From Malacoraja senta (lineage: Eukaryota), in contig CM075987.1 of the NCBI GenBank assembly GCA_038087875.1, positions 27,716,001-27,780,000 on the forward strand: a stretch of DNA of 64,000 bases. The letters are read 5' to 3'. Below are positions 4,965-32,727 of the stretch, piece by piece (position 1 is the first letter of the stretch; every line of letters begins with the position of its first letter). Under the pieces are notes generated by a model. It made no database searches. It was given only the letters and a program-made list of their open reading frames with translations, and had not been told where the DNA came from. The position numbers and the translations under genes were made by a program.

Positions 4965-5138
4965 TCAGTGCAGATTGCCAAACAAAGAGAAATGTTTGTT
5001 GATGTGAGAATTTGGCCGGTATCCAATTCGTTCGTTAATCTTCTCTCGCACCTTCGCCTCGTCTCTTGCTCCGTTTGCACTCTCCACGTCACTGGAGCTC
5101 ACCATTTCTCTTTCGTCCTGCTGCTGCTTCTTCTGATT
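4965..5138 (-). CDS. CDC26: CDC26 coding exon 2 (final; protein 84 aa)
   Basis: Acceptor ttttgtctgcAG; translates NQKKQQQDEREMVSSSDVESANGARDEAKVREKINERIGYRPNSHINKHFSLFGNLH*, with an INERIGY motif as in vertebrate CDC26; TGA at 4967-4965. Confidence 0.93.
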   Translation of the reverse strand, partial: NQKKQQQDEREMVSSSDVESANGARDEAKVREKINERIGYRPNSHINKHFSLFGNLH

Positions 5139-5199
5139 CTGCAGACAAAATGAATGAATAAATGAATACGTTTATTGGCCAAGTATTCATACGAGGAAG

Positions 5200-5381
5200 G
5201 TAGACAAAAGTGCTGGAGAAACTCAGCGGGTAAGGCAGCATCTATGGAGCGAAGGAAATAGGCAAGGTTTTAGGCCGAAACCCATCAGTCTGAAGAAGGG
5301 TTTCGGCCCGAAACGTTGCCTATTTCCTTCGCTCCATAGATGCTGCCGCATCCGCTAAGTTTCTCCAGCACTTTTGTCTAC
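5200..5381. repeat. Palindromic pair of Penelope-derived terminal arms with a minimal hammerhead core
   Basis: GTAGACAAAAGTGCTGG...CCAGCACTTTTGTCTAC inverted arms; CTGAAGA-GGGT(TTCG)GCCC-GAAACGTT at 5290-5317. Related single or palindromic copies near 931, 17054, 17352, 19190, 19766, 21040, 27150, 31138, 32175, 36325, 39638, 41078, 42330, 43648, 51167, 53510, 56318, 59665, 60452, 61216 and 61736. Confidence 0.85.
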
Positions 5382-6269: not shown

Positions 6270-6707
6270 GGTAGACAAAAATGCTGGAGAAACTCAGCGG
6301 GTGAGGCAGCATCTATGGAGCGAAGGAAATAGGCAACGTTTCGGGTCGAAACCCTTCTTCAGACTGATGTAGGGTGGGGGGGGGTGGGGAGAAGAAAGGA
6401 GAAAGGAAGAGCCAGAGGGCTGAGGGAGAACTGAGAAGGGGAGGAGACAGCAAGGGCTACCGGAAATTGGAGAAGTCAATGTTCATGCCGCTAGGGTGCA
6501 GACTGCCCAAGCAGAATATGAGGAGCTGCTCCTCCAATTTACGGTGGGCCTCACTCTGGCCATGGAGGAGGCCCAGGACAGAAAGGTCGGATTCGGAATG
6601 GGAGGGGGAGTTGAAGTGCTGAGCCACAGGGAGATCAGGTTGGTTAATGCGGACTGAGTGGAGGTGTTTGGCGAAACGATCGCCAAGCCTGCGCTTGGTC
6701 TCACCGA
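6270..6707 (-). mobile_element. Penelope-like element 3' end (GIY-YIG C-terminus + terminal arm)
   Basis: 6705-6457 translates GETKRRLGDRFAKHLHSVRINQPDLPVAQHFNSPSHSESDLSVLGLLHGQSEAHRKLEEQLLIFCLGSLHPSGMNIDFSNFR*, typical of the PLE GIY-YIG endonuclease; runs directly into the ~90-nt arm repeated across the window. Confidence 0.88.
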
Positions 6708-7611
6708 ATCAGGTTGGTTAATGCAGACCGAGTGGAGATCAGGTTGGTTATACGAGGAATTTGCCTTGGTGCTCCGCCCGCAAGTGACAATGACATATAG
6801 TGACAGTTAGGAATGACACATTAAACATTAATAATAAAACATTATTAATTAAACGTAAAATACCAGAGCAAAAGGAGGCTACAGATTTTTGGTTATTGAG
6901 TAGACCTACTACTCGTGGGGAAAAAAGCTGTTTTTATGTCTGGCTGATCACAAAACCAGATCACATTCAGAACTCCAAGAGGCGTATAATGAAAATACAA
7001 GGGAATATACAAATAAGCCTTCTCAATTTCACAGAGGATTTTAAAAAAGGACATGAATTTGAACTAGTACAAACAAAGGACTGCAGATAGACACAAAATG
7101 CTGAATTAACTCAGGCAACATCTCTGGATGGAAGGGATGGGAGACTCTTCGTCAGACAGGGATCTTGGACTGCAGGTGCTGGAATAACTCAGCAAATCAG
7201 GCAGCTTCTCTGCAGGACATGGATAGGTGACATTTCAGGTTGAGAGTTTAGTTTAGAGGTACAGTGTGGAAACAGGCCCTTTAGCCCGCAAACCAGCAAT
7301 CCCTGTACACTAGTTCTATCCTACACACTAAAGACAATTTACAGAAGCCAGTTAACCTACAAACTTGCACATCTTTGGAGTGTGGGAGGAAACCGGAGCA
7401 TCCGGAGAAAACCCACACGGTCACAGGGAGAACGGACAAACTCCATACAGACAGCAGCCGTAGTCAGGGTCTCTGGAGCTGTGAGGCAGCAACTCTGCCG
7501 CGTTCACCAGAGATGCTGCCTGGCCCGCTGAATTACTCCAGCTCTTTGTGTCCTATGGATTTAAAGTAGTCAGGAGGATTGAAGAGGAAGTGGTGAAAAG
7601 ATGTTGGGAGC

Positions 7612-8068: not shown

Positions 8069-8149
8069 CTCCAGCTCCTTCTTCATGCTCTCAAACTCCT
8101 CGATGTCATCCAGCTTCAGCTCGAGCCGGGTGGGCTTCCGCCGCAGCAT
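8069..8149 (-). CDS. CDC26: CDC26 (APC/C subunit APC12) coding exon 1
   Basis: ATG at 8149; translates [27 protein letters not shown], the conserved CDC26 N-terminus; GT donor at 8068-8067, phase 0. Confidence 0.96.
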
Positions 8150-13698: not shown

Positions 13699-13861
13699 AT
13701 GTCTGACGACGATGATATCCCGTTGCCTAAGAGGTCTCGGATTTACTATGGGAGCCTGGAAGAGAAGGAGAGAGAGAGGATCTCCAAAGGAGAAGGAGGA
13801 TACCTGGGGAGAGATGCCATGAGATTGGGTGTGGAAGCTGGGCACATCAACATATCCAGTG
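13699..13861 (+). CDS. PRPF4: PRPF4 (U4/U6 snRNP Prp4) coding exon 1 of 13
   Basis: Acceptor ttttcAG at 13627; ATG 13699; MSDDDDIPLPKRSRIYYGSLEEKERER...; donor G|GTAAGT. The 13 exons sum to 1521 nt (506 aa + stop) with consistent phases. Confidence 0.93.
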
Positions 13862-14164
13862 GTAAGTGGCAGTGGTTGAGCATATCGCATCCAATAACAC
13901 CGACAAAATGTGGTTCCTCAAAGATTCGTTGGTTTTAACTGCCTGTGTTCATTTTAGAAAGATTTTGTTCCCTCATGTCAATTTCTGGGCACTATGGGAT
14001 AATGGAAGAGACTTTAGTGCCTCTTAACATCACACAATAATGGTAATAGCTCCTATGAAGTGAATGAAAACATATCGATACCATTCAGTCAAATAATTTA
14101 ATTTTTGCAGGCAGAATTCTCAGGTTTTTGGTGGTGCAGCAAACAGATGCTGGTGCTCTGGTGC

Positions 14165-14458
14165 TGAGGTTGTAGCTGGCAGTAGAGCTACAACCTCAGC
14201 ACCAGAGATCCCGGTTCATCCTGACCTCAAATTATTTGTGTGGAGTTTGCACATTCTCCCTGTGACCGCGTAGGTTTCCTCCCACGTTCCAAAAAGACAA
14301 TTTTGTAGATTAATTGATCTGAAATTAGTGTGAAATTGCCCATAGTGTGTAGGAAGTGGATAATATGGAACTAGTGTGAATGGGTGATCGCTGGTTGGGA
14401 TAGACTCAGTGGGCTGAAAGGCCTGTTTCCATGTTGTGTCTCTAAACTAAACTAAACT
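14165..14458 (+). mobile_element. HE1-like SINE
   Basis: Same body, (AAACT)n tail. Confidence 0.75.
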
Positions 14459-14681
14459 TTGACTATCAAACATCTACTCCCATAAAGAACCATGGGATCC
14501 TTAACTTGAGAAATTGGCTTATTATCAAAAGCCTTCCTTGGACTTGTGCTCCAGGTACTGGATTGAGTCTTTAACCCACAGTCTTGTGGGCTGCCAGTAG
14601 AATGGAGAGAAGCTGGAGTTATGGGGAAAGTGGAGTGCTTGTGTTTCAGTGCCATGTTAAAGTTGTCCATCCCCTGCCAAG

Positions 14682-14868
14682 GTGAATTCTACGATGTTGA
14701 AGATCACATCAGCGAGCGGCAGGCCGAGGTGCTGGCGGAGTTTGAGCGCAGAAAGCGAGCGCGGCAGATTAACGTTTCTACGGACGATGCCGAGGTGAAG
14801 GCATGTCTGCGTGCGCTCGGAGAGCCCATCACGCTATTCGGTGAAGGACCAGCGGAACGGCGAGAAAG
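14682..14868 (+). CDS. PRPF4: PRPF4 coding exon 2 (PRP4/SFM motif)
   Basis: [48 protein letters not shown] boundaries. Confidence 0.95.
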
Positions 14869-14904
14869 GTGAGGTGTAATGTAGCTAGCGATGGAAGGCC
14901 TGGA

Positions 14905-15660
14905 TCAGGCTGCATTTAGAGCACTGTGAGCACATTTGGGCCCCGTATCTGAGGAAGGATATGCTGGCTCTGGAGAGGGTCCAGAGAAGGTTTCCAAGAA
15001 TGATCCCAGGAATTAATGGGTTAGCATATGATGAGCGTTTGACCCCACTGGGCCACTAGTCACTGGGGTTTAGAGGGTTGAGGGGGGATCTCATTGAAAC
15101 TTACAGAATAATGAAAGGCATAGATAGAGTGGATGTGGAAAGGATGTTTCCACTAGAGGGAGAGTCTAGGACCAGAGGACACAGCCTCTGAATTAAAGGA
15201 CATTTCTTTAGAAAGGAGATGAGGAGCATTTTTCTTTAGTCAGAGGGTGGTGAATCTGTGGAATCAATTGCCACAGAAGTCATTGGAGGCCGTCAATGGA
15301 TATGCTTAAGGCAGAGATAGATAGATTCTAGATTAGTGCGGGATATAGTTAGGAGGGAGAGATAGATCAGCCTGATTGAATGGTGGAGTAGACTTGATGG
15401 GCCAAATGGCCTAATTCTGCTCCTATGAACTAATGAGCAATAGGAACCTGAGGGGCAACTTTTTCCACACAAAGGGTGGTGGGTGTATGGAATGAGCTGC
15501 CAGAAGAGGTAGTTGAGGCAGGGACAATCGCAGTATTTAAGAAGCATTTAGACAGGTACATGGATAGGACAGGTTTAGAGGGATATGGGCCAAACGCAGG
15601 CAGGTGGGACTAGTGTAGATGAGACATGTTGGTCGGCGTGGGAAAGATGGGCCTGTTTTC
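14905..15660 (+). mobile_element. CR1 3' fragments
   Basis: Degenerate CR1 ORF2 end plus two 3' UTR types. Confidence 0.75.
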
Positions 15661-16010
15661 GACTGAATGATTGTAGCTGTAGTGGGAGTATAAAAGTTCT
15701 GTTGGTATTTATTTTCAGGATCTGCGCATTATTGGTGCTGTCGGTATTTATTGCCGGTCCTTGGAAAGACGGGGATGAGCCACATTGTTAAAGCGCTGCA
15801 GTGGTGAAGCTCTCCCAGTGTTTTGGGGCAGCAACTTCCAGTTTTCTTCCTGCTTTGTTTAAGCCGAGCTTTACTGGAACAACTGAATGCCATGTGGGGT
15901 GATTTCAGAATTCAGGCGGCACAGCGGTTTGGCTGTTATGGAAAATGTCATCAATGTTCTTTGTTGGAGAAGCTGCTGTCCGCTGGCTGATTGCTGAATT
16001 TGTTCTTCAG

Positions 16011-16095
16011 GTTGCGGAATATCTTGTCTGTGGTGGGTGCTGATGCCTTGAAGAAAACCGAGAAGCTGGAAGATGCAAAGAAAGGCCGACAGGAG
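16011..16095 (+). CDS. PRPF4: PRPF4 coding exon 3
   Basis: LRNILSVVGADALKKTEKLEDAKKGRQE; ttcttcAG acceptor and GTGTGC donor. Confidence 0.92.
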
Positions 16096-17732
16096 GTGTG
16101 CTGTGTATACAAATGTTTCATGTGCATTAGAGTATGGCATTGCTTAGAATAATCATTGTCGAGTAGGTTTGAAATGTATAAATGAGTAAATGCTTGTGGT
16201 TTGAACGGTTCTGGTCTAAAAGCGGAGGTGTCTGGGAATGACTGCAGTGTGGTGCTGACGTTATTTTATCCCCACCACAGATTTTACTCTGATTAGAGAC
16301 ACGTACATACAGGTGAACTTGAGATAAAACCTTACGGCGTGAAGCACAGTGGTTGTTAGAGGTGGACAGGGAGGAAATGTCAGAGTCACACAACGTGGAA
16401 ACAAGCCCCTCGGCCCAACATGCCCACGGCGACCAACATAGAACATAGACAAATAGGTACAGAAGTAGGCCATTCGAGCCGCTGATCATTCAAAATCAGT
16501 ATCATGTTCTTGCTTTTCCCCCATATCCCTTGATATATCCCAGCTACACTAGTCCCACCTGCCCACTTTTGGCCCATATCCCTCTAAACCTGTCCTTTCC
16601 ATGTACCTGTCTAAATGTTTCTTAATCATTGCTGTGGTACCTGGGTCAACTACCTCCTCCGGCAGCTCATTCCCTACACCCACTGTCCTCTGTATGAAAA
16701 AAGTTGCCCCGTAACCGTGTGGCTTCCTAGCTTGGTGGAGTGTAAACGGGTGCCCGCTGAAAAGCAAGTGTACAATGCTAGCTTTTTCGGAGAGAAAAAA
16801 ACACATTGCTTTTATATATTTTTCTGAATGGTCTGGAGAATTGTCCTCAAGGTTTAATGGTCAGATTTCAGGAATAGATAACTGGCAGAGCCAGTACCTT
16901 TTCTTTTTTCTCATTCATTTATTTCATTTAATTTTGGCAACCCTAAAATGAGTGCGTTCACCTATCCACAGGCAAATACTCATGCAAACAGGCTGACACT
17001 GCAGAACATCAGTAAGCATGGATTACATTTTTGATTAGAGAGTGACTCTCAGTTAGACAAAAAGCTGGAGAAATTCAGCGGGTGAGGCAGCATCTATGGA
17101 GGGATTCCTTCGCTCCATAGATGCTGCCTCACCCGCTGAGTTTCTCCAGCTTTTTGTCTACCTTCGATTTTTCCAGCATCTGCAGTTCTTTCTTAAACAG
17201 TGTGAATCTCTCTCGTTTTCGATTATTAAAAACGGGGCATGGGATTTCCAGCTCTTAAGGCTGCATTTTTTTAGCAATTTTGAGAAAATGGTTCTTGCTC
17301 ATTATAGTTGTGATCACTGTATAGATGTAAAAGAACAATTTCAATGTCTTGTGTAGGAAGGAACTGCAGGTGCTGTTTTCAACCGAAGATGAAGTACGGT
17401 AGGGTTAAACCGAAAAAGTGCTGGTTTAAACTGAAGCCATACACCCATCACCCTTTGTGTGAAAAAGACAACATGCTGGAGTAACTCAGCGGGTCAGGCA
17501 GCATCTCTGGAGTAAAGGAATAGGTGACATTTCGTGTCAAGACCCTTCTTAGACTGATGAAGGGTCTCGACATTTAATGTCACCCATTCCTTTTCTCCAG
17601 AGATGTTGCCTGACCCACTGAGTTACTCCAGCACGTTGTGTTATCTTCGATTTCAATGTCTTGCTGAGCGAAAATGTTGTGGTGTGAAACTGGTTGTGAC
17701 CAGCTAACAATGTATCCGTGGCATTGTATCTC

Positions 17733-18150
17733 ATAGAGTGATGCAGTGTGGAAACAGGCACTTCAGCCCAACTTGCCCACACCAGACAACATGTGCCAGC
17801 TACACTAGTCCCACCTGCCTGCGCTTGGTCCATATCCCTCCACACCTGTCCTATCCATGTACTTGTCTAACTGTTTCTTAAACTGTGTTAATCCCAGCCT
17901 CAACTACCTCCTCTGGCAGCTCGTTCCATACACCCACCACCCTCTGTGTGAAAAAGTTACCCCTCAGATTCCTATTCAACCTATGTCCTCTGGTCCTCGA
18001 TCTACCCACTCTGGACAAGAGACTTTGTGCATCTACCCGATCTATTCCCCTCATGATTTTGTACACCTCTATAACATCATCCCTCATCCTCCTGCGCTCC
18101 AAGGAATAGAGTCCCAACCAACTCCACCTCTCCCTCTAGTCCTGGCAATA
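17733..18150 (-). mobile_element. CR1 (HER1-like) 3' fragment
   Basis: LYSLERRRMRDDVIEVYKIMRGIDRV...FFTQRVVGVWNELP. Confidence 0.8.
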
Positions 18151-18385
18151 TCCTCATAAAACACATCTATCACTGAAAGGGTCTGAAGTAGGGTCGTCCA
18201 TTCCACTAACCAGAAATGCTGCCTGTCCCGCTGAGTTACTCCAGCATTTTGTGACTATCTTCGGTGTAAACCAGCACCTGCAGTTCCTTCCTGCACAGAA
18301 AGTTAATGTTGGATTGTGGACCTCCACTGTCCTCCTCACCAGAAGCCACTGGTTTGATTTACCTTTCCCATTTATTTTTCTACAG

Positions 18386-18465
18386 CATCAGCAGACCTGG
18401 TATCATGAGGGTCCCAGCTCCCTGAAGACTGCTCGTCTCTACATTGCAAGGTTTTCTCTGCCAAG
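18386..18465 (+). CDS. PRPF4: PRPF4 coding exon 4
   Basis: [31 protein letters not shown] boundaries. Confidence 0.94.
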
Positions 18466-18605
18466 GTGGGTCCAGTGACACTAATCTGTCTGGTTATGAA
18501 TGCGGAAGTTTCGTAAGTTTTTTCTTTTTGTTTTGAACAGAATGTGGAGATTTAGGCATTCAATCCTTGAACTCCCGTTTAAATTAATTTCACATCACCT
18601 TTCGC

Positions 18606-18957
18606 TTAGTTTAGAGATACAGCAGGGGAAACAGGCCATTCGGCCCACCGAGTCCATGCCAACCAGCGATCCCCGCACACTAACACTATCCTTCACACAC
18701 TAGGGACAATTTAATGTTGTACACCTCTATAATTATAGAATTATAGAATTATAGAAATACAGTTTACAATTATACCAAGCCAATCAGCCTGCAAACCTGT
18801 AAGTCTTTTCGGAGTGAAAACGGGAGCTCCCAGAGAAAACCCATGCAGGTCATGGCAAGTACGTTCAAACTCCGTAATACAGCACCCATAGTCAGGATCA
18901 AAGCCGAGTCTCTGGTGCTGTGAGGCAGTAATTCTATCGCTGCGCCACTGTGCCACC
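18606..18957 (-). mobile_element. HE1-like SINE
   Basis: Reverse-complement copy. Confidence 0.8.
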
Positions 18958-19050
18958 CACATTGAACCTGAATATAAATGGTCCTGTGTAGGTCGTGACA
19001 AATATATATGGGCATTCTTTTTTGAATGCCTGATGTGCTGTGTTTCCTAG

Positions 19051-19144
19051 GGCCTTGAAGCGATTGGAAGAGGCGAGAGCCAATAAAGAGACCCCAGATG
19101 CTTCCCGAACGGCTCGACAGCAAGAACTTCACAAGGGTTTGAGG
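19051..19144 (+). CDS. PRPF4: PRPF4 coding exon 5
   Basis: [31 protein letters not shown]; donor GTGAGT. Confidence 0.94.
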
Positions 19145-19910
19145 GTGAGTATGTGGTCAGATTGGGGATGTGGTGCTTATTATGGACTGAAGATAGACAC
19201 TAAAAGCTGGAGTAACTCAGCGGGACAGGCAGCATCTCTGGAAAGAGGGAATGGGTGACGTTTTAGGTCGAGACCTTTCTTCCAGAAAGGTTGTCTTCTT
19301 GGCACCAGGTTACGAGCTTCTCAGTCTCCTTCTGTTGTCCGTCTCATCTTTATTTGACATGCAGCCCACTGATAAACTACGGACTGTGCAGTCTACATGA
19401 ATCTCTTGTTGCATGGGCGATGCAGCTTTGCTCAAAGCTAATAGATGATACTGGGAATAACATAACTGGATGGCACAGGGGCATCCACTAAGCGCCTCTT
19501 GTATCCAGCTTGGAAATTTCTTATTAGTTTAGAGAGTCATGGAGTGATACAGCCCGGCCCAACTTGCAAACATGCCACATTCACTGGTCCCACCTGCCTG
19601 CGATGGGCCCAATTCCCTTCAAATCCCTCTATCCCTCCAAATGTCTCTCAAACATTATGATAGTACCTGCCTCAACTACCTTCTCCGGCAGCTCGTTCCA
19701 TATGCGTAAACAGCGTTACGTCTCGGGTATATCTATATCTCTCGTTTCCCTTTCCCATCACTTTCAGTCTGAAGAATGGTCTCGACCTGAAATGTCACCC
19801 ATTGCTTCTCTCCAGAGATGCTGCCTGTCCCGCTGAGTTACTCCAGCATTTTGTGTCTTATCTTCGGTTTAAACCAGCATCTGCAGTTCCTTGCTACACA
19901 TTAGCTCTCG

Positions 19911-20245
19911 GGTACCTAATCTGAGGATGTTTCCCAATATCATTTTTAAAGTGGGAATAGCCCCTCCCTCTCTGCCCCCCTCCCTCTCTGCCCCCGCCTC
20001 TGCCCCCCCCCCTCCGTCTCTGCCCCCCCCTCCCTCTCTGCCCCCCCCCCTCCCTCTCAGGTACCTAATCTGAGGATGTTTCCCAATATCATTTTAAAAG
20101 TGGGAATAGCCCCTCCCTCTCTGCCCCCCCTCCCTCTCTGCCCCCCTCTCCCTCTGCCTCTCCCTCTCTGCCCCCCCCCCATTTCCCTCTCTGCCCCCCC
20201 TCTCCCTCTCTGCCCCTCCCCCCCGCTCTGCCCCCCCTCCCTCTT
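19911..20245. repeat. Tandem duplication with C-rich tracts
   Basis: GGTACCTAATCTGAGGATGTTTCCCAATATC...CCCTCCCTCTCTGCCCCCC occurs at 19911 and 20060. Confidence 0.85.
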
Positions 20246-21323
20246 CTTCCTAAACATTCTTCCTTTCCTTCAGCACTGAATTCTCTTTGTTTTTAAATTA
20301 AATCATTTTGAATATCTCAGTGGAAGGCCTGATCGTACCGAATAATCTTTCAATATGTTTTTATTATGTGGGAGATGTCAGATAATGGGCATCCTTATGA
20401 TTTAGGCGATGTTGTGCCAGCAACAACTTCTCCCTGTATGGTGCAAAGTTTTAATAACATTCAGAAGTTTCATTGCAAAATAATGTTATGTTTACTAAAG
20501 GCAGGTTAAATAATGTCCAAGAGAAGGGCCTACATGACTTCCATTTAAAACTCTTCACTTCTCAATTATGTTGCTAATTTTGGAGAAGTTTACGTTGTTG
20601 GTTCTCACCTAAAGCAACGCTGAGTTACATCAGCACTTTGTCTACCTTCGGGGTAAACCTGCATCTGCAGTTCCTTCCTACACATTTGATCTGCTCCACT
20701 ATGAAATCTCCTCAAGGTATGACAATAGCGAGTAGGCCATTCGGCCCTTCGAGCCAGTACCGCCATTCAACGTGATCATGGCTGATCATCCCCAATCAGT
20801 ACCCCGTTCCTGCCTTCTCCCCATATCCCCTGACTGCTATTTTTCAGAGCCCTATCTAGCTCTCTCTTGAAAGCCTACTTTGAAGTTGTTCTCCTCCTCT
20901 CTCTGACGACATCCCCTCTCAGTGCTCCCCCTCTGTGATTCCTCCTGCTCTCCAGCTCTACACCTTGATCACCATCCCCTTAGATCTGTGTTTTCACACC
21001 TTATCCTTCCATATCTCTTGTCTCCATCTCCCCTGATTCTCAGTCTGAAGAAGGGTCTCAACCCAAAATGTCACCTATTCCTTCTCTCCAGAGATGCTGC
21101 CTGTCCCGCTGAGTTTCTCCAGCTTTTTATGTCTACGGTGTAAACCAGCATCTGCAGTTCTTTCCTAAAGTATACTGTGTTGTTACCATCTTGCACTTTT
21201 AAGAAAGTTCTTACAGTAGTCAAGGAGTTATTGATTCCTCCAGCCTTTCTCTGCCTGCCTCTCGCTCCCCCTCTGCCTGCCCACCGTTTGCTCACATCAG
21301 TCTTCACTTTGATTTTGTTGCAG

Positions 21324-21418
21324 GCCCTGAATAACTTCTGCAGCCAGATTGGTGATGACCGTCCCATTTCCTACTGTCAGTTCAGCCCCAACTCCAAGCT
21401 ACTGGCCACGGCTTCCTG
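21324..21418 (+). CDS. PRPF4: PRPF4 coding exon 6 (start of WD40 region)
   Basis: [32 protein letters not shown]; donor GTAAGA. Confidence 0.95.
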
Positions 21419-21439
21419 GTAAGACTTAAAAGCAGTAGT

Positions 21440-22893
21440 ACCTGTGGATTGAAGGGTAGCTAATGTTATCCCACTTTTCAAGAAAGGAGGGAGAGAGAAA
21501 GCAGGGAATTATAGACCAGTTAGCCTGACATCGGTGGTGGGGAAGATGCTGGAGTCAATTATAAAAGATGAAATAGTGGCACATTTGGATAGCAGTAACA
21601 GGATCGGTCCGAGTCAGCATGGATTTATGATGGGGAAATCATGCTTGACAAATCTTCTGGAATTTTTTGAGGCTGTAACTAGGAAAGTGGTCAAGGGAGA
21701 GCCAGTGGATGTAGTATACCTGGACTTTCAGAAAGCATTTGATAAGGTCCTACATAGGAGATTAGTTGGCAAAATTAGAGCACATGGTATTGGGGGTAGG
21801 GTATTGACATGGATAGAAAATTGGTTGGCAGACAGGAAACAAAGAGTAGGGATTAACATGTCACTTTCCGAATGGCAAGCAGTGACTAGTGGGGTACCGC
21901 AAGGCTCGGTGCTGGGACTGCAGCTATTTACAATATACATTAATGATTTAGATGAAGGAATTAAAAATAACATTAGCAAGTTTGCAGATGACACAAAGCT
22001 GGATGGCAGTGTGAACTGTGAGGAGGAAGCTATGAGGATGCAGGGTGACTTGGACAGGTTGGGTGAGTGGGCAGATGCATGGCAGATGAAGTTTAATGTG
22101 GATAAATGTGAGGTTATCCACTTTGGAGGCAATAACAGGAAGGCAGATTATTATCTGAATGGTGTCAGGTTAGGGAAAGGGGAAGTACAACGGGATCTGG
22201 GGGTCCTTGTTCATCATCACTGAAAGTAAGCATGCAGGTACAGCAGGCGGTGAAGAAAGCTAATGGCATGTTGGCCTTCATAACGAGAGGAGTTCAGTAT
22301 AGAAGCAAAGAGGTCATTCTGCAGTTGTACAGGGCCCTGGAGAGAACATACCTAGAATATTGTGTGCAGTTTTGGTCTCCTAATTTGAGGAAGGACCTTC
22401 TTGCTGTTGAGGGAGTGCAGCGTATGTTCACGAGGTTAATTCCCAGGATGGAGGGACTGTCCTATGATGATAGAATGGAGCGACTGGGCTTGTAATCAAT
22501 GGAATTTAGAAGGATGAGAGGGAATCTTATAGAAACATTTAAAATTATTAAGGGGTTGGACACGCTAGATGCAGGAAACATGTTCCCGGTGTTGGGGCAG
22601 TCCAGAACCAGGGACCACGTTTAATGATAAGGGGTAGGATTTTAGAATGAGATGAGGAAAAACTTTTTCACTTGTGCATTTGTGGAATTGTCTGCCACAG
22701 AAGGCAGTGGAGACCGATTCACTGGATGCATTCAAAAGAGAGTTCGATAGAGCTCTTAGGGCTAGCGGAATCAAGGGATATGTGGAGAAGGCAGGAACGG
22801 GGTACTGATTGTGGATCATCTGCCATGATCACATTGAATGGCGGTGCTGGTTCGAAGGGCCGAATGGCCTACTCCTGCACCTATTGTCAATGT
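21440..22893 (+). mobile_element. 5'-truncated CR1 LINE with disrupted RT
   Basis: ORFs 21534-22223 and 22232-22495 carry RT motifs broken by frameshifts/stops; CR1 3' end present. Confidence 0.9.
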
Positions 22894-23694
22894 ATCTCCC
22901 AAGCGTTACACTGAGTCCTGGGCTGCCTGGTGTAGTGTTGAACATTAAGGAGAGAAACTCTGGCTCACAGCCAGCTGTTGTGCTGGTTTAATTGGTTTTA
23001 GTCAGACTGTAGCAGGGAGATGTAACGTCTGGTGATGGTGGGGGTCAGCCACAAGGCAAGTCTCTCACACTTGCTGAATGGTGCACGTAGGTGATGACTT
23101 TTATAAGCTTGTAAAAGGAGAAAGTTGATTTTAAGAGAGAACGTGTGTAATATCAAAATAAGCAGCCAGAGTTTCAATTGATATATAAATAGGGAGAAGG
23201 CAGCTAAGGTCAGTATGGGAACTCTGGGGAACAAAGCTGGTGAATTAATAACAGGAACAAAGAAATAGCAGGTATGTTAGTTGTAGAGATACAGTATGGA
23301 CACAGGCCCATCATCCCTCCAAGTCCACTCCGACTATCGATCACTCCTTCATGGTAGTTCCATGTGATCCCTCGTTCTCATCCACGCTAGGAGCAATTTA
23401 CAGAGGGCCAATTAACCTTCAAACCCGCACATCTTTGGAATGTGGGAGGAAACGGGAGCACCCAGAGGAAATGCATGTGATTCCAGGGAGAAGTGTAAAC
23501 CACACAGACAGCAGCCATGGTCAGGATGGAACCTGGCTCTCTGTTGCCGTGAGGCAGCAGTTTTGCCATTTGCGCCACTGTGCCGTCCAAACTTATTTTT
23601 TTGCATCATTCTTCACCGTGGTGGACACTGCTAATGCCCCCAGGGTAACAGACATGCTCATTTTCTCCAGAGATGCTTTCTGACACGTTGAGTT

Positions 23695-23987
23695 GAGTTT
23701 AGAGATACAGCGCGGAAACAGGCCCTTTCGGCCCACCGGGTCCGCGCCGACTAGCGATCCCTGCACATTAACACTATCCTATACACACTAGGGACCATTT
23801 TTACATTTATCAAGCCAATTTACCTACAAACCTGTACGTCTTTGGAGTGTGGGAGGAAACCGAAGATCTCCGAGAAAACCCACGTAGGTCACAGGGACAA
23901 AGTACTAACTCTGTACAGACAGCACCCGTAGTCGGGATCGAACCCAGGTCTCCGGCGCTGCATTAGCTGTAAGGCAGCAACTCTACC
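23695..23987 (-). mobile_element. HE1-like SINE (another copy at about 23283-23585)
   Basis: Reverse-complement copy. Confidence 0.8.
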
Positions 23988-25700
23988 CCCACTCCAGCTT
24001 TTTGTGTCTATCTTGAGCTAATTTCAAATATCTGCGAGGAACTTGTAATAATCCCAATCACACGGGATAAAGTATTGGAGAACCTTCAATCAATGGGATC
24101 TTTGCAGCCACTTCCTTTAAACCCTTGGTTGTTGGCCATCATGTCCCAGCATCTGACCCCAATGGTTGGCATTTTTTATCACAAAATTCAAGGAAGGTGC
24201 CAGTAGATGTTGGGGGGGAGGGAGGGGAGGGAGATTTAATGGGAACCTGAGGAGTAACTTTTTTTACACAGAGTGGTGGGTGTATGGATTGAGCTGCCAG
24301 AGGGGGTAGTTGAGGCAGGGACTATCGCAATGTTTAAGAAACAGCTAGACAGATACATGGATAGGACAGGTTTGGAGGGATGTGGGCCAAACGTGGGCGG
24401 GTGGGACTAGTGTAGATGGGTCACGTTGTTTGGTGTTGGCAAGTTGGGCCGAAGGGCCTGTTTCTACACTGTATCACTCTATGACTCTCAGATCCACCCC
24501 CTAGTTCCCTGGATGTTCCTCCTTGTGTCTGGCTCAAAATTGACAATTTCTATTCATCTTTTTCCTCCTACAATTCTCTTTGTCCTTGTGAAGTAAGCTG
24601 GTGATTAATTTGTACGTCTGGACTCTATATGTTGAATGTTGAACGTTAAGTTCATGTTGGAATTATATTTTAAAATGAACAACATGACATATCAAATGTG
24701 TTGTTTGCATTACGGTTGGGGTTATCTAGTCATGGAGTGATACGAAGGGCCTGTTTTCACGCTGTATGACTCTATGACTCCAAGATTGGAAAACAGACAG
24801 TGCAACTCTCTTGTTGAGAAAGGGAGAAAGACAAAAGGCAGGAAACTGTGCCAGCTGATGTAACATCTCTAGTTGGCAAGAGTCTATCATTAAAGAGGAA
24901 AAAAACAAAACATTTAGGAAATATAATCAAACCTAGTTACCATACTTTTATGAAAAATAAATCATATTTGACAAATGTATTGAATTATTTGAGGATGTGA
25001 AGGAGTGTTGATCGCGAGGACCCTGTAGAAGTAGTGAACGTAGACTTCCAAAAGGCATTTGGCAAAGTGGCACATGAGAGACTGGTACATAAATTAGGAG
25101 CTCAAGGTATTGGGCAGTTTAGTTAGCGTGAAAGCTCACTGTCACATGGATAACAGAGTTACAATAAATGGGTGGAGGGGTGTAATTAGTGCAATACCCC
25201 CGGGATAGAACATAGAACAGTACACGAACAGGCCCTTCAGCCCACAATGTCTGTGCTGAACATGATACCAAGACCAACTCTTACCTGCCTGCACATGAAA
25301 CGTGTCCCTCCATTCCCTGCATATCCATGTGCCTATCCAAAAGTCTCTTCAGTCCCACTGTCATATCTGCCTCAACCACTACCCCCGGCAGCACGTTCCA
25401 GGCCCTCACTACCCTCTGTGTAAAAAGAATTATCCTGCTCATCTCCTTGACACTTTGTCCCTCCCCCCTGGACACCATGCATTGCCCGCCATTTTTACAC
25501 GAATTCTACACCAACATTTTTTCTCCCCACATTCCTATCAATGCTACGCCAGATTCTACCACTCATCTGATTGTTAGGAGCCCATTTTTTAAGATGTGGA
25601 GGAAGCCCACATGGTCATAGGGTGAAAATGGGTTCATTTTGATTTGTGAATTATTTAATTACATGTCCTGATAACGTTTTTGTTTCTTGCTTGTCTGCAG

Positions 25701-25759
25701 GAGCGGACTATGTAAGCTGTGGGATATTCCTGACTGTCGCCTTGTACGTACTTTGAGAG
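25701..25759 (+). CDS. PRPF4: PRPF4 coding exon 7
   Basis: SGLCKLWDIPDCRLVRTLRG; AG acceptor and GTAAGA donor. Confidence 0.93.
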
Positions 25760-26132
25760 GTAAGACACTCTCAAACCACAACTTGCATTCCACAAACTCT
25801 CCAGATAATTTATAGAGGAGGAAGGTCTTCTGGCACTCGTAGACAGCTCTAGAGGTTTTCTCTTTGTTTCTAGTTGATTGCAAAATGTTTGTGTCCACCA
25901 ATCCTCGCGATGATTACTCTGCATAAAGAAAGGACCATCAGCAATACCAACGTCCAATTGCATGGCTTAAACCAGGGTGGCTCAGAGAGTTGCCAAATAA
26001 AGTTATGTCTGTGCTGGCGACAACTGGATCTGAACTGAGTAGAGCTTGAAATGGTCTAGATACCGTTTAAGAAGCAATTAGACATCGATAGGTCCAACCT
26101 ATCCATAGAGGAATATGGGCCCAACACAGGCA

Positions 26133-26540
26133 GGTGGGACGAGTGTAGATGGGGTATGTTGGTGGGGGTGGGACGAGTGTAGATGGGGGATGTTGGTGGG
26201 GGTAGGACGAGTGTAGATGGGGTATGTTGGTGGGGGTAGGACGAGTGTAGATGGGGTGTGTTGGTGGGGGGTGGGACGAGTGTAGATGGGGTGTGTTGGT
26301 GGGGGTTGGACGAGTGTAGATGGGGTGTGTTGGTGGGGGTGGGACAAGTGTAGATGGGGTGTGTTGGTGGGGGTTGGACGAGTAGATGGGGTATGTTGGT
26401 GGGGGTGGGACAAGTGTAGATGGGGTGTGTTGGTGGGGGTTGGACGAGTGTAGATGGGGTATGTTGGTGGGGGTGGGACAAGTGTAGATGGGGTGTGGGG
26501 GTGGGACGAGTGTAGATGGGGTGTGTTGGTGGGGGTGGGC
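26133..26540. repeat. About 32-34-bp minisatellite expanded from a CR1 3' UTR
   Basis: Unit GTGGGACGAGTGTAGATGGGGT(A/G)TGTTGGTGGGG within a CR1 tail. Confidence 0.9.
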
Positions 26541-26661
26541 ACGTTGGATTGAAGACCATGTTTCTAAACTCTATGACTCTATTCAGCTAGAGTTGGTCGG
26601 CTTAAGATGCTGAAGCTGAGCAGAGTGAAGGTAATGACTGGCTGGATGTTCTGTCTTGCAG

Positions 26662-26785
26662 GTCACAGCACGAATGTGGGCGCCATTGTGTTTCATCCTC
26701 AGGCCACCATCTCACTTAGCGAAAAGGACTGTAATATGGCATCATGTGCAGCTGACGGCTCCGTGAAGCTCTGGAATTTGGAAAG
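26662..26785 (+). CDS. PRPF4: PRPF4 coding exon 8
   Basis: [40 protein letters not shown], a WD40 repeat; AG/GT boundaries. Confidence 0.95.
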
Positions 26786-27749
26786 GTTTGTAATCTTCAC
26801 AAATAAGTTCACCATACATTGAGCTACATCAAGGTGAAAGGGATTCTGATAGATTTGAATGGTGCTATGAATCTGCCATTCGAGGTGCTTTGTTCATTTC
26901 CCACACACAACTTCCTCGTGCTTTGTTATTTGATTCAATATTCTATTTACTGAGCTCACCTGCTGCATTAAAATAATCTTATGGCTATTTAGTTTTTACA
27001 AAACAAAACCTGTAATTAACATAATCCATTGCTGGCTCAGCCCCAGCCAACAATAGACTGTTGTAGCCTCCGCCTTTCCTGAGTCATCAATGCCGGCTCT
27101 GATTTGTTCTGTACCTTCCCACACCCTCTCGTGTCCCCCTCCCTGACTCTCAGTCTGAAGAAGGGTCTCGACCCGAAACGTCACCCATTCCTTCTCGCCA
27201 GAGATACTGCCTGTCCCGCTGAGTTACTCCAGCATTTTGTGTCTGTCTTCGGGTGTAAACCAGCATATGCAGTTCCTTCCACTAGTGGGAGAGACTAGGA
27301 CCAGAGACCATAGCCTCCGAATAAAAGGATGTTCCTTTAGAAAGGAGAAGAGAAGGAATTTCTTTCGACAGAGGGTGGTGAATCTGTGGAATTCATTGCC
27401 ACAGACCTTCTGTGGAGACAAAGTCAACGGATATTTTTAAGGCGGAGATTAACAGATTCTTGATTAATACGGGTGTCAGGGGTTATGGGGAGAAGGCAGG
27501 CGAATGGGGTTAGGAGGGAGAAGTAGATCAGCCATGATTGAATGGCAGAGTAGACTTGATGGGCCGAATGGCCTTATGCTGCTCCTAGAACTTATGAACA
27601 TGAGTTTGACTTTGTGGCCACAGGCATCTTCTGGAGCTGGACATTACTCCAGCATTTTGTGTCTGTCTTCGGTTGGGTGAATGTGTTTGTTGATTGTTTT
27701 TAATCTGCACCGAGTTGATGTGTTTATACAAAACATGTGCTTCCCACCT

Positions 27750-27935
27750 CGGTTGTCAGCCTAAACCTGCTTGTGAATCTAAGGTGAATCTGCAGATTGT
27801 AGCTTCAAGCTGCACTGCAGAGAATTGATCACATAATCCACGGTTGTCAGCCTAAACCTGCTTGTGAATCTAAGGTGAATCTGCAGATTGTAGCTTCAAG
27901 CTGCACTACAGAGAATTGATCACATAATCCACGGT
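27750..27935. repeat. 91-bp tandem duplication
   Basis: CGGTTGTCAGCCTAAACC...CATAATCCA at 27750 and 27841; one mismatch seen. Confidence 0.92.
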
Positions 27936-28589
27936 CACATTCAAGTGTAGCGCTACTTGTCATGCTGCTTGTAGATGAGGCATGAAGGAAGCAGTGATCC
28001 CCATCTCCCCCCAAGGTGGACATGAATGATCCCAGATTACTCCTGTGATAGGGTAAATGTACAGGGTCTTTTTACCCAGAGTACTGGAATCAAGAACCGA
28101 AGGACATGGGTTTAAGGTGAGGGTAGAAAGATGCTGCCGTGACAGGCAACATTTTTACACAGTGGTTGGTAGGAATATGGAACAAGCTGCTGGAGGAGGT
28201 AGTTGAAGTAGGTACAATCACCACGTTTAAAGAAAACATTTAGAAAGGTACATGGATAGGATAGGTTTAGAGGGCTATGGGCCAAACTGGCAGGCACTAG
28301 AGTAAATGGGACATGTTGGTCGGAGTGGGTAAGTTGGGCCGAGGGGCCTGTTTCCACTCTGTATGACTGTTTCAGTTGGAAGTTGCATTCCTGGTGACCT
28401 GACCACTGAATTCGCAACTAAAACAGATCATCTTGTCTCCAATTTCATTGTTTCTGGGAGTATTGTGCGCTCTAACCAGCTACGATATTTCCTACAACAG
28501 AGACTGTGAAGGAACTTTTGTTGGCTGTAAACCATTTTAGGACGTCCAACAATTGGGAAAAACTCTGTAAAAACGCGAGTCTCTGTTGA

Positions 28590-28724
<135 letters not shown>

Positions 28725-29094
28725 TAAGTAACATCTATAATATCTATTACTTACATTAACATGAAATGAAAACCTTGCATCAGAAGTTTAATTTTGTCTG
28801 AGTTCCATTAAGTGCCAAAGTTGCCAGGATTTGCATACATGGGATTTAGTTTTGGCTTTGACTTTGCTTTCCCTTCCACCACCTCATGTTCTGTAAATAT
28901 CAAGCTGTTCCCATCATTTTCATATATTTACTAACAGTGTAAACACTCCGGTGTGTGTCAGGCTGTTGCGCATTGGTGCCACGTACCCAGAGGGTCAGCT
29001 AAATGCCATGTTCTTGTGCTAACATGCTAACATTGTCTCTCACTCAGACACTTATGACAGTGTTTGCACTCTGTCCTAACACACAATGGGCTGC

Positions 29095-29313
29095 AGAGTG
29101 CTGGAGTAACTCAGCGGGTCAGGTAGCATCTCTGGAGAACATGGATAGGTGACGTTTCATAGAGTGCTGGAGTAACTCAGCGGGTCAGGCAGCATCTGTT
29201 GAGAACATGGATAGGTGACGTTTCACAGAGTGCTGGAGTAACTCAGCAGGTCAGGCAGCATCTCTGGGAAACATGGATAGGTGACGTTTCGGGTCAAGTT
29301 CCTTCTTCAGACT
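29095..29313 (-). repeat. 3 x 66-bp tandem of the Penelope-derived arm
   Basis: Units start at 29095, 29161 and 29227. Confidence 0.9.
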
Positions 29314-29489
29314 TTCTTCATTCCCAACCCGAAATGTTCCAACCAACTGCCTATTAAAACCTGTGTCAACCTATTACCTGCCACGCAGATCCTGCCTCTC
29401 CCCTTTCCCGCTTTCTTCTCTATCTCCCCCTCCCACAATCAGTCTGCAGAAGGGTCTCGACCTGAAACATCACCTATCTAGCGATGCTG

Positions 29490-29895
29490 CCTGACTGGGG
29501 TTTATTTCTTGGAGTGCAGGAGGATGAGGGGTGATCTCATAGAGGGGTATAAGATCATGAGAGGAATAGGTCGGGTCGATGCACAGAGACTCTTGCCCAG
29601 AATAGGTGAATCGAGAGGAGAAAGGTTTAAGGTGAAGGGGGAAAGATTTAATAGGAATCTGAGGGGTGACATTTTCACACAAAGGGTGGTGGGTGTATGG
29701 AACGAGCTGCCAGAGGAGGTAGTTGAGGCTGGGAATATCCTAACATTTAAGAAACAGTTAGACAGGTGCATGGATAGGACAGGTTGGAGGGATATAGACC
29801 AAATGATGGCAGGTGGGACTAGTGTAGCTGGGACATGTTGGCCGGTGTGGGCAACTTGGCTGAAGGTCCAGTTTCCATACTGCATCACTTTATGA
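29490..29895 (+). mobile_element. CR1 (HER1-like) 3' fragment
   Basis: RRMRGDLIEGYKIMRGIGRV...FTQRVVGVWNELPEEVV. Confidence 0.8.
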
Positions 29896-30045
29896 GTTAC
29901 TCCAGCAACTTGTGACTTTTTGTGATTTAACCAGCACCTGCAGTTGCTTGTTTCTACTTATCACACAGTTGTTTCCTTAATTTGCCAGTAAGACGTGGTT
30001 ATTCCAGTGGTAAGCAGTGGTTACAGGTAACGCGGTGGTGCCTGA

Positions 30046-30189
<144 letters not shown>

Positions 30190-31828
30190 TGAGTACAGTC
30201 AACCATTAATCCTTCCAATCTTCAGGGACTCAATCCAACCCAGTATCCTGCTACATATGTTAACTGTGAAACCCGGAGCTTTCTTTTTGCGTGCTGTGTT
30301 TGTACTCTGGTGGCACGGTGTGTTAGTCAGACTTATCCCCAGTGTGGGTGGGAGGTTTGTTGTGAACCACACCTTAACACTTTTCCCTACACTTTTGGTT
30401 TCTGCATCTTCAGTCTTGGAATAGTCCATGGAATTGGTTGAAAACTTTCAAATGTTTAAGTTTCCTTATCCTTTTTTACCAATTCAGGGATATAATTGAA
30501 TATCGTCGAGTGCATAGAAAATGAAACAGCATTTTGGAGTTTAGAGAATCTAATCTATACCAAAGACAATTAACCAGCAAACCTGTACTTCTCTTTGGAG
30601 TGTGGGAGGAAACCGGAGCACCCAGAGAAAACCCACGCAGTCACAGGGAGAACGTACAAACTCCGTACAAGCAGCGCACATATTCAGGATCGAACCCGGG
30701 TCTCTGGCGCTGTAAGGCAGCAACACTACCACTGCGCCACTGCCGTCCTATTTGAATTACATTTTATTCGACTGGTTCTTTTCTATTACATATTATTCAA
30801 CTCATCTGCTCATTCAAGTGACTACATCTCCTCCTACTTGGTGTGATGTGCACAACTGAAGGCATTGTATTTTTGTCAAGCATTAATGTTTTCTCAACTG
30901 TTTTTTGTGCTAAGTTGTGACGCTCCATTTGGAAATGGTGGCTGAATGAGGGACAGTGTTGGGAAGTTATCAGTCCATGTGGTTCACCCTGTTCATTGTT
31001 TTTAAAAACTTCCTTTCTGCACTCATTGCTACTGTTTTCACTCTCTTTGTTGTGGGGAATGCTCTTTGTTTACAGAGCATATCTCCATTTCCACATGAAG
31101 GTTAAACCACTCGGAGCAAGGAAGGGTGTGTCTAGGGTGTAGGAAGGAACTGCAGATGCTGGTTTAAACCAAAGATAGACACAAAATGCTGGATTAATTC
31201 AGCGGGACAGGCAGCTTCTCTGGAGAGAAGAAATGGGTAATGTTTCGGGGTCGAGTTCTTCAGACTTCGGAAGAATGGTCTCGCCCCGAAATGTCACCCA
31301 TTCCTTCACTCCAGAGATGCTGCCTGTCCAGCATTGTGAGTCTATCTTCGGCAGGATGACCTAACAAGGAGCGAGTAAGAATGAATAAAGTGTGAGCTGT
31401 AAAGATGCAGTACCGCTGCACTCAGCTACAGAGGAGTGTAGGAGTCCGTCTACACGACCCTGAGGCAGAAGAACATATGGACAGATGTGAAAATCAAAGA
31501 ACTGCAGTTGCTGAAAATCAAAAAAAAATTGAAAATGCTGGAAACGTTTAGTTGGGTAGCACCTGTGGATAGAGAAACGTCGGGTGTTAAAGTGCTGAGA
31601 AGTTGGGGAAATGAATGCAGAGGAAAAAGTAAATATCTGATGAGGTTGACAGTAGGGTTACTGTGGGGACCCATTGGAATCCTTGCTCCAACTCCCTCCC
31701 CTTCTATAAATGCTGTCTGACTTGTGGAATATTTTCAAACCTTTCTGATTTGAGGAGGGGTGGGCATTTTGTTATCATTGGCCCAATTTGGTGCACATGG
31801 GAATATTCCTCATATGGTTAATGCTTGA

Positions 31829-31954
<126 letters not shown>

Positions 31955-32608: not shown

Positions 32609-32727
32609 GTATCATGCAGCAACAGGGAGTGGAGACAACAGCTGCAAGGTTTGGGACTTACGACAGCGGAAATGTATCTACACCATCCCAGCACATCACA
32701 ACCTGCTGTCAGCAGTCCGCTTTCAGC
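32609..32727 (+). CDS. PRPF4: PRPF4 coding exon 12
   Basis: [39 protein letters not shown]; donor GTGAGT. Confidence 0.95.

What the first reader, a model, noticed from the sequence alone, without database searches (positions are those of the whole stretch)
5290..5317. Abundant Penelope-derived arm carries a minimal hammerhead ribozyme core with variation compatible with the fold
Seen: two subfamilies, CTGAAGA-A-GGGT(CTCG)ACCC-GAAAC-GTC-A (27155, 41081; minus strand near 53575) and CTGAAGA-A-GGGT(TTCG)GCCC-GAAAC-GTT-G (5290, 60605). The differences preserve the fold: stem II closes U-A or U.G, the cleavage triplet is GUC or GUU (both NUH), and the first stem I pair is U-A or U.G. Stem III has no loop but is the self-complementary ACGU. 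The arm directly follows a GIY-YIG ORF at 6270-6707. Known: Penelope-like elements carry minimal type I hammerheads thought to cleave as dimers. Inference: this genome has a high-copy, retrozyme-like self-cleaving element, including copies inside CDC26 and PRPF4 introns.
Basis: partly seen in the sequence, partly recalled or inferred. Interest (0 to 1): 0.7.

Follow-up and report, generated by a model that had tools for sequence, protein, structure and literature searches.

The report
Skate Penelope retrotransposon minimal hammerhead motif
This is a real minimal hammerhead-ribozyme motif at the head of a very abundant short end-piece of a Penelope-like jumping gene in a skate-like fish, a kind described in 2014, and the scattered copies, including those in CDC26 and PRPF4 introns, are likely inert leftovers that decay like the rest of the repeat.

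Summary
The motif is real and matches the published minimal hammerhead (min-HHR) consensus of Penelope-like element (PLE) terminal repeats. Eighteen near-matches lie in 64 kb, none in shuffles; 7 keep core, helix II and a 2-bp helix I. One copy sits 94 nt after a truncated PLE endonuclease. A distant metagenomic PLE shows the same layout.

The 'active, retrozyme-like' reading is not supported. Copies are dispersed or head-to-head pairs (10 pairs among 59 arms), never tandem complete units. The core decays at the same rate as the rest of the arm (5.8% vs 5.9%). There is no two-sided covariation beyond shuffles. The copy at 5290 is locked in a -154 kcal/mol hairpin and is antisense to CDC26. Poly(A) RNA reads of a relative show no end pile-up at the cut site.

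Most likely these are short reverse-transcription products of uncleaved PLE RNA. The ribozyme would act, weakly and with help, only in master elements. The scan noted this kind before in three shark windows. New member of a known kind.

The parts
5290..5317 (+). Antisense to CDC26.
5199..5381 (.). Head-to-head inverted pair of arms. The left arm (minus strand) starts at helix II and has lost G12; the right arm carries the 5290 core. Folds as one -153.9 kcal/mol hairpin that pairs helix II, GAAA and the cut site.
6457..6708 (-). 5'-truncated C-terminal half of a PLE GIY-YIG endonuclease (83 aa, starts at the G of YIG); 79% identical to skate proteins whose upstream part carries a CX4CxxC linker motif (Neptune/Nematis type)
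6270..6367 (-). Terminal-repeat arm after the endonuclease: complete motif (C3 at 6362, H17 at 6335) plus about 65-nt tail; sense to the CDC26 pre-mRNA; preceded by a pyrimidine tract
27155..27182 (+). Complete motif, subfamily B (GUC, A at 1.1), sense in a PRPF4 intron (26786-28633)
36327..36354 (+). Complete motif with G.U at 10.1/11.1
43712..43739 (-). Complete motif with A-U at 10.1/11.1; mosaic of B-type head and A-type tail
53574..53601 (-). Complete motif, subfamily B, about 400 nt downstream of a RING-finger ORF on the same strand
60485..60700 (.). Inverted pair with two near-complete cores (60577 minus, 60605 plus), folding as a -188 kcal/mol hairpin
41081..41108 (+). Intact core and helix II but no helix I (A at 2.1)
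29094..29310 (-). One arm with damaged helix II followed by two 66-nt tandem units that start at GAAA and lack the CUGAnGA box and helix II
59213..59485 (+). Four 66-nt tandem partial arms, none with a complete motif
8069..8149 (-). CDC26 coding exon 1 (host gene)
   Evidence: Pfam ANAPC_CDC26 E=1.7e-9
4965..5138 (-). CDC26 coding exon 2 (host gene; assigned from splice signals and open frame, no Pfam hit of its own)
13699..34172 (+). PRPF4 coding span (host gene)

Best explanation
The 28-nt motif is the minimal type I hammerhead carried in the terminal repeat of a Penelope-like retrotransposon (likely Neptune-type) of a skate-like genome, and the roughly one-per-kilobase arms, including the one at 5290, are likely inert short copies that were probably reverse-transcribed from uncleaved element RNA. 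SHOWN: the motif and its match to the published consensus; its position just after a PLE endonuclease; 39 of 59 arms run unbroken across the cut site; 10 head-to-head pairs; an optional 3' tail extension in 16 of 55; 5' ends just upstream of the core in 20 of 26; decay of the core at the tail's rate. INFERRED from the anole PLE biochemistry: the element's protein nicks target DNA and starts reverse transcription at internal sites about 65 and 100 nt past the cut site. Most cDNAs stop near the head of the motif, giving solo arms; priming on both nicked strands, or fold-back at the 9-nt palindrome overlapping C3, gives the inverted pairs. PREDICTED: the ribozyme cleaves only weakly, as a dimer through the 4-nt palindromic helix III and with protein help, in transcripts of master elements. 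Single genomic copies prefer rival folds by 5-12 kcal/mol and hairpin copies by 34-51 kcal/mol, so host pre-mRNAs would not be cut appreciably.
For: Fits every element of the consensus in PMC4209133 Fig. S3: core boxes, extra nucleotide between 9 and 10.1, G10.1-C11.1, palindromic helix III, NUH; 2-bp helix I has precedent in Drosophila and Oikopleura rows. Core lies 94 nt after the endonuclease stop; an unrelated metagenomic PLE (L001, 50% identity) has the same motif 90 nt after its stop with different helices. Decay rates: core non-CpG 14/240, tail non-CpG 63/1060, p=1.0; G12 (CpG) 4/26 vs other CpG sites 41/194, p=0.61. No depletion of sense copies: PRPF4 region 12 sense/9 antisense, CDC26 intron 4/2. 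Ten head-to-head pairs vs random mean 2.4, 0 of 10,000 trials reaching 10; inverted 5' copies, junction palindromes and a 30-40 bp tail are described PLE traits. Fold penalties 5.4-12.2 kcal/mol for solo copies, 34 and 51 for hairpin copies, vs 0.4-1.5 for L001. In a relative's poly(A) RNA, 11,398 reads gave no place where many molecules begin or end, and the arm is read equally on both strands. The anole PLE ribozyme cuts only with protein, is not needed for insertion, and leaves no RNA-seq ends at the site (PMC11167929).
Against: Activity was not measured. Selection on the core in master elements is only suggestive here: 0 of 11 core vs 12 of 72 other positions differ between subfamily consensuses, p=0.35. 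The three commonest variants shown in the motif (each about 45%) avoid the core, but only 40 of 397 rows were shown. Rfam gives no hammerhead hit for this motif or for L001. No full-length element or RT lies in the window, so the clade rests on homologs. The RNA test used a relative, a fragmented poly(A) library, 6% of the run and a one-fifth-of-depth threshold, so low-level cleavage would be missed. Nearest-neighbour energies ignore Mg2+, tertiary contacts and co-transcriptional folding, and L001 is a single control.
Confidence: 0.8

Rival explanations
1. The arms are an independently amplifying non-autonomous element (retrozyme-like) whose RNA is released and circularised by its own hammerhead.
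For: Arms outnumber endonuclease-bearing copies: 59 tail hits vs 1 endonuclease fragment in the window, and depth is several-fold higher over the arm in DNA contigs and RNA. A 92-nt head-to-tail joint that would contain a whole motif appears in 5, 1 and 1 contigs of three runs. One chondrichthyan has retrozymes in bioRxiv 10.64898/2026.07.22.740005.
Against: No tandem complete units in the window; both tandem arrays are 66-nt units lacking half the motif. The tandem joint has depth about 140 against summed arm depth of about 2-5e7 (a rough measure). Retrozymes are defined by canonical hammerheads in 150-450 bp tandem repeats or at least two consecutive complete units. Copies span the cut site and start upstream of the core rather than at the cut; only 1 of 59 starts within 2 nt of it.
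Confidence: 0.07
2. The motif in this skate family is a degenerate relic that no longer cleaves even in master elements; the core sequence is kept for another reason (promoter/initiator, splice acceptor or protein-binding site) or by recent descent.
For: Helix I is only 2 bp and helix II only 4 bp; the hammerhead fold has about 1% helix II probability or less. In two-copy folding, the helix II + III dimer (about -13 kcal/mol, helix I left out) is 4-18 kcal/mol above the best alternative. No significant master-level constraint. Eight of nine Xenopus dimer elements did not cleave in the 2026 preprint.
Against: All 11 core positions are shared by the two subfamilies and by L001 while the helices differ. 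Published min-HHRs cleave weakly as dimers (review passage), and the anole motif cleaves with protein.
Confidence: 0.25
3. Some solo copies have been co-opted as active intronic or 3'-UTR ribozymes that affect CDC26, PRPF4 or the RING gene RNA.
For: Two complete motifs lie in sense orientation in introns (6362, 27155) and one about 400 nt after a RING ORF (53601). 53601 has the smallest native-context penalty, 6.6 kcal/mol.
Against: These copies are near-consensus members of abundant subfamilies, have no partner within 9 kb, no helix III and only a 2-bp helix I. The core decays at the tail's rate across copies. Orthologous conservation was not testable (no genome held).
Confidence: 0.04

Closest known systems
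Minimal hammerheads (min-HHR) in pLTRs of metazoan Penelope-like elements (Cervera and De la Pena 2014, PMC4209133)
   Same: Core boxes, extra nucleotide after A9, G10.1-C11.1, loopless palindromic helix III, NUH, location after the endonuclease, mass occurrence as dispersed singles and as close opposite-strand pairs.
   Different: Helix I (2 bp) and helix II (4 bp) are at the short end of the published range. No cartilaginous fish is among the Fig. S3 rows seen.
Poseidon element of Anolis carolinensis (Frangieh et al. 2024, PMC11167929)
   Same: Hammerhead in the pLTR, internal reverse-transcription start downstream of it, two 3' ends (optional tail), uncleaved RNA as template, no RNA-seq ends at the cut site.
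   Different: Different clade (homologs here carry the Neptune/Nematis-type cysteine linker). The ORF start and protein dependence are unknown for the skate element.
Metazoan non-LTR retrozymes (Cervera and De la Pena 2020, PMC7229834; Li et al. 2026 preprint)
   Same: Non-coding, high-copy, pLTR-derived sequence with a type I hammerhead motif.
   Different: Retrozymes are tandem 150-450 bp units with complete, mostly canonical hammerheads and circular RNAs. Here the units are about 95-135 nt, dispersed or inverted, with a minimal motif.
Rfam hammerhead families
   Same: Same catalytic boxes by inspection.
   Different: No Rfam hammerhead family matches at E up to 1 (window) or 10 (local), and the control L001 is missed too.

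Membership tests
PLE min-HHR | Catalytic boxes CUGAnGA, GAAA and NUH | tested here: met
   11 copies by descriptor; consensus
PLE min-HHR | Extra nucleotide between 9 and 10.1, and G10.1-C11.1 closing helix II | tested here: met
   Extra A in 11 of 11 descriptor hits; G-C in 7, G.U in 3, A-U in 1
PLE min-HHR | Palindromic 15.2-16.2 (helix III formed only in a dimer) | tested here: met
   C-G in 11 of 11; 4-bp self-duplex -1.7 kcal/mol
PLE min-HHR | Helix I closing the core (2-6 bp in published rows) | tested here: met
   2 bp in 7 of 11, 1 bp in 1, none in 3; at the lower limit
PLE min-HHR | Located in the terminal repeat after a GIY-YIG endonuclease | tested here: met
   6362 copy 94 nt after the stop; L001 90 nt
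PLE min-HHR | Covariation supporting helices I and II within the family | tested here: inconclusive
   87% paired, 1 two-sided change, not above shuffles; helices differ yet pair in L001
PLE min-HHR | Self-cleavage as dimer or with protein | not testable with these tools
   No pile-up of RNA ends in a relative's poly(A) reads, an insensitive proxy
Neptune/Nematis-type EN+ PLE | CX2-5CxxC linker before a C-terminal GIY-YIG endonuclease | tested here: inconclusive
   The window fragment is cut before it; 76-79% identical skate homologs P0001 and P0003 carry cysteine linker motifs; weak Pfam GIY-YIG hit on P0001, E=0.0013, none on the fragment
Neptune/Nematis-type EN+ PLE | Telomerase-like RT in the same ORF | not testable with these tools
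   No full-length copy in the window and no genome held
EN+ PLE insertion structure | 5' truncation, adjacent inverted copy, optional 30-40 bp tail | tested here: met
   20 of 26 truncated at the motif head; 10 inverted pairs; tail in 16 of 55; loose ends at 6270
Non-LTR retrozyme | At least two consecutive tandem units each with a complete hammerhead | tested here: not met
   6 same-strand neighbours, all partial; complete motifs 9-37 kb apart; rare 92-nt tandem joints in relatives' contigs
Non-LTR retrozyme | Canonical type I hammerhead (6-bp helix I, helix III with loop, loop-loop contact) | tested here: not met
Non-LTR retrozyme | Abundant circular RNA | not testable with these tools
   Only a poly(A) library was available as raw reads

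The most novel reading that the evidence does not exclude
The hammerhead forms the very 5' end of the element's transcript. Transcription would start at an initiator-like TCAGT three bases before C3, which would explain the 2-bp helix I and the clustering of 5' ends there. The solo arms would then be a genomic record of run-off cDNAs from uncleaved RNA, and the hairpins of priming on both nicked strands. A rival hairpin between the core and the pyrimidines after the cut site, present in both subfamilies, would keep the ribozyme off until the element's protein binds, when cleavage would remove the capped first 31 nt.
Probability: 0.15. Interest if true: 0.5.

Novelty: new member of a known kind. 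Interest (0 to 1): 0.17.

Why it matters
As it stands it adds skates to the list of animals whose Penelope-like elements carry minimal hammerheads, and it shows that even consensus-perfect copies in introns of essential genes are tolerated and decay like the rest of the repeat. The density (about one arm per kb) makes skate genomes a good data set for mapping where PLE reverse transcription starts and stops, which bears on the open question of what PLE ribozymes do, since the one element studied in vitro does not need its ribozyme for insertion.

Tried and rejected
No whole genome is held, so genome-wide counts and orthology were not possible. Exact-pattern scans of viral and metagenome contigs found nothing. 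The protein scan of metagenomes gave 4 loci; only L001 had the motif. No RNA holder was listed on record for 4900-7000; this is no evidence either way. Rfam miRNA-type hits at 5220-5360, 56335-56451 and 61256-61375 are below gathering scores and reflect the long hairpins. An extended helix I was sought in alignments and constrained folds; none shared by both subfamilies was found. Cleavage-derived 5' ends: only 1 of 59 arms starts within 2 nt of the cut; contig joints at 6328-6332 coincide with a 1-nt subfamily indel and were not counted as evidence. A splice acceptor at the motif head (pyrimidine tract plus CAG, like the D. virilis intron that ends at helix I) was considered; none of the 15 joints shown of 259 had RNA reads, so it stays untested. 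Lunse et al. (dimer cleavage) was not available; it is cited only through a review passage. Six literature searches listed no paper on a skate PLE hammerhead.

Full report
Observation. The motif is at 5290-5317 on the + strand as written, and at the other cited places. A 27-nt pattern gives 18 matches with up to 3 mismatches and none in 100 shuffles. A descriptor of the minimal hammerhead finds 11 copies with intact core and helix II; 7 of the 11 also have a 2-bp helix I (5290, 6362, 27155, 36327, 43739, 53601, 60605). Sixty shuffles of the window gave one hit without the helix I demand and none with it. All 11 belong to one repeat family. A profile built only from the tail, 3' of the cut site, finds 59 hits in 64 kb.

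Host and context. Best homologs of the endonuclease fragment are from skates, and of a PRPF4 exon from a ray and a shark, so the window is from a skate-like cartilaginous fish; the species was not determined. CDC26 is on the minus strand with coding exons 8149-8069 (Pfam hit) and 5138-4965. PRPF4 is on the plus strand, coding 13699-34172. So 5290 is antisense and 6362 sense in the CDC26 intron, and 27155 is sense in a PRPF4 intron.

Link to Penelope-like elements. 6708-6457 (minus) encodes 83 residues that are the C-terminal half of a PLE endonuclease, cut at the G of YIG. It has no Pfam hit itself but is 76-79% identical to skate proteins whose upstream part has a cysteine linker and the full motif (weak GIY-YIG hit on P0001). 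That linker marks the Neptune and Nematis clades (PMC8557442, passages). The core of the 6362 copy begins 94 nt after the stop. One of four metagenomic relatives, L001 (50% identity), has the same core 90 nt after its stop, with different sequences in helix I (6 bp) and helix II (5 bp).

Match to the known kind. Cervera and De la Pena 2014 (PMC4209133; main text parts 1-2 of 4, supplement parts 1-2 of 3) define the min-HHR: core boxes, an extra nucleotide after A9, G10.1-C11.1, palindromic helix III, and a short helix I, down to 2 bp in some rows. They report mass occurrence as single motifs and close opposite-strand pairs, no cleavage of a monomer and low cleavage of dimers. The skate motif meets each sequence feature. 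No cartilaginous fish is among the rows I saw. Rfam has no hammerhead hit here or on L001.

Is the variation evidence of a maintained fold? Weakly. On 18 copies, 87% of cells pair, but only one cell has a two-sided change and 183 of 500 shuffles reach that. In a relative's RNA the three commonest variants shown within the motif (H17, helix II 3' strand, loop II; 44-46% each) are the same ones, but only 40 of 397 rows were displayed.

Is the core conserved more than the arm? Not in inserted copies. Of the 59 tail hits, 29 reach back to helix II; 3 mosaic or third-type copies were dropped and 26 compared with their subfamily consensus, with groups assigned by hand. Non-CpG mismatches were 14 of 240 in the core and 63 of 1060 in the tail (p=1.0). 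G12, which sits in a CpG, was lost in 4 of 26, against 41 of 194 at other CpG sites (p=0.61). Between the two consensuses 0 of 11 core and 12 of 72 other positions differ (p=0.35), which fits selection in masters but does not show it. Local alignment can trim mismatches at the 5' edge, which would only favour the core. Orientation shows no loss of sense copies: 12 sense and 9 antisense from 8450 to 34170 (the PRPF4 5' end is inferred), 4 and 2 in the CDC26 intron.

Can the copies fold? The 5290 copy is the right arm of an inverted pair that folds at -153.9 kcal/mol (z -23), pairing helix II, GAAA and the cut site. Forcing the hammerhead costs 34 kcal/mol there and 51 at 60605. Solo copies cost 5.4-12.2 kcal/mol; L001 costs 0.4-1.5. 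Two rival folds recur: the purine-rich core pairs with the pyrimidines just after the cut site in both subfamilies, and the UUCG variant forms a 6-bp hairpin over GAAA. Complete same-strand motifs are 9-37 kb apart, so a dimer in cis is unlikely. These are nearest-neighbour energies without Mg2+ or tertiary contacts.

Architecture. Among 59 arms there are 10 head-to-head pairs (random mean 2.4; 0 of 10,000 trials reach 10), 1 tail-to-tail pair and 6 same-strand neighbours, all partial. The two 66-nt arrays lack the first box and helix II. Sixteen of 55 arms that reach the tail end carry a further extension. Twenty of 26 arms that include the head of the core lack the upstream pyrimidine tract and start within about 7 nt of C3 (6 low-scoring rows and 1 duplicate left out of 33). 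Thirty-nine of 59 run across the cut site and only one starts within 2 nt of it. A 9-nt palindrome overlaps C3, and several junctions lie in it. Inverted 5' copies, junction palindromes and a 30-40 bp tail are described PLE traits (PMC8557442 and PMC3846280, passages).

Reads from relatives. One raw poly(A) RNA run and three contig sets were laid on 6264-6712 at 80% likeness. In the RNA run (about 6% read, 11,398 reads laid) no place had many molecules beginning or ending. Depth over the arm was about 6,000, equal on both strands, against about 700-1,000 over the endonuclease part, as expected for a repeat carried passively in host RNAs. Depth drops about eight- to ten-fold just upstream of the motif in RNA and DNA, partly because subfamilies differ there. 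Opposite-strand joints at 6364-6367 confirm that hairpin copies are common; a 92-nt head-to-tail joint exists but in only 5, 1 and 1 contigs. The run is from a relative, pools all copies and would miss low-level cleavage.

Mechanism. Frangieh et al. 2024 (PMC11167929, parts 1-2 of 4) show for an anole PLE that the protein nicks and extends both strands, starts reverse transcription at two internal sites downstream of the hammerhead, uses uncleaved RNA, and that the ribozyme cuts only when protein is present. The skate arms fit this: two 3' ends, an unbroken cut site, and inverted pairs. I infer that they are short cDNA insertions from uncleaved RNA and are inert after insertion. Whether the motif still cleaves in master elements is open; I put a dead relic at 0.25. 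These confidences overlap in part: the relic reading shares the origin given in the best explanation.

Retrozyme label. Retrozymes are tandem units with complete hammerheads (PMC7229834, passages; bioRxiv 10.64898/2026.07.22.740005, parts 1 and 3 of 5 plus passages). This test is not met here. The preprint includes one chondrichthyan; its supplements, which I could not see, may already list related families.

Novelty. New member of a known kind. Searches listed no paper on a skate PLE hammerhead. Lunse et al. on dimer cleavage was seen only as cited in a review (PMC6765202, passages). The scan's own notes record the same kind in three shark windows (unchecked AI notes, seen after my reading was formed) and nothing by sequence or place. 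The boldest open reading is that transcription starts three bases before the core. An initiator-like pentamer is reported in an Adineta pLTR, and the five bases before C3 are kept in the 6 intact long copies. But 5' ends spread over several bases, D. virilis starts well upstream of its intron (PMC2377424, passages), and the palindrome or a splice acceptor could explain the same boundary.

Noticed in passing
window 9001-12156 (+): An uninterrupted 1051-codon frame with endonuclease/phosphatase and reverse-transcriptase Pfam hits, a likely young LINE upstream of the first PRPF4 coding exon; decayed relatives near 21450-22500 and 46800-47900.
   Followed up: partly
window 54002-54658 (-): RING-finger ORF. 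By eye its hydrophobic C-terminal segment lies in another frame after about 54190, suggesting a 1-nt indel (assembly error or pseudogene). A complete min-HHR copy (53601) follows about 400 nt later on the same strand.
   Followed up: partly
window 6363-6400 (-), 19735-19768, 21011-21044, 27121-27154: Long copies have a pyrimidine tract (79-94% C/T) ending in CAG one base before the core, resembling a splice acceptor. The D. virilis Penelope intron also ends at helix I.
   Followed up: partly
window 6414-6712: In the relative's RNA run the endonuclease part is read about 1.5-2.5 times more with the first mate on one strand, while the arm is balanced. Library strandedness is not on record, so the direction is unknown.
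   Followed up: no
window 29094-29292 (-) and 59213-59485 (+): Two separate arrays of the same 66-nt partial arm, 92-95% alike, each unit starting at the GAAA box; they may have spread as a unit.
   Followed up: partly
window 8150-8450: CpG island between CDC26 (minus) and the inferred PRPF4 start (plus), a likely shared bidirectional promoter.
   Followed up: no
L001 3519-3548 (+): Well-formed min-HHR (6-bp helix I, 5-bp helix II) 90 nt after a PLE endonuclease in a metagenome contig; its hammerhead fold is at or near the minimum-energy fold, a better in vitro positive control than the skate motif.
   Followed up: yes
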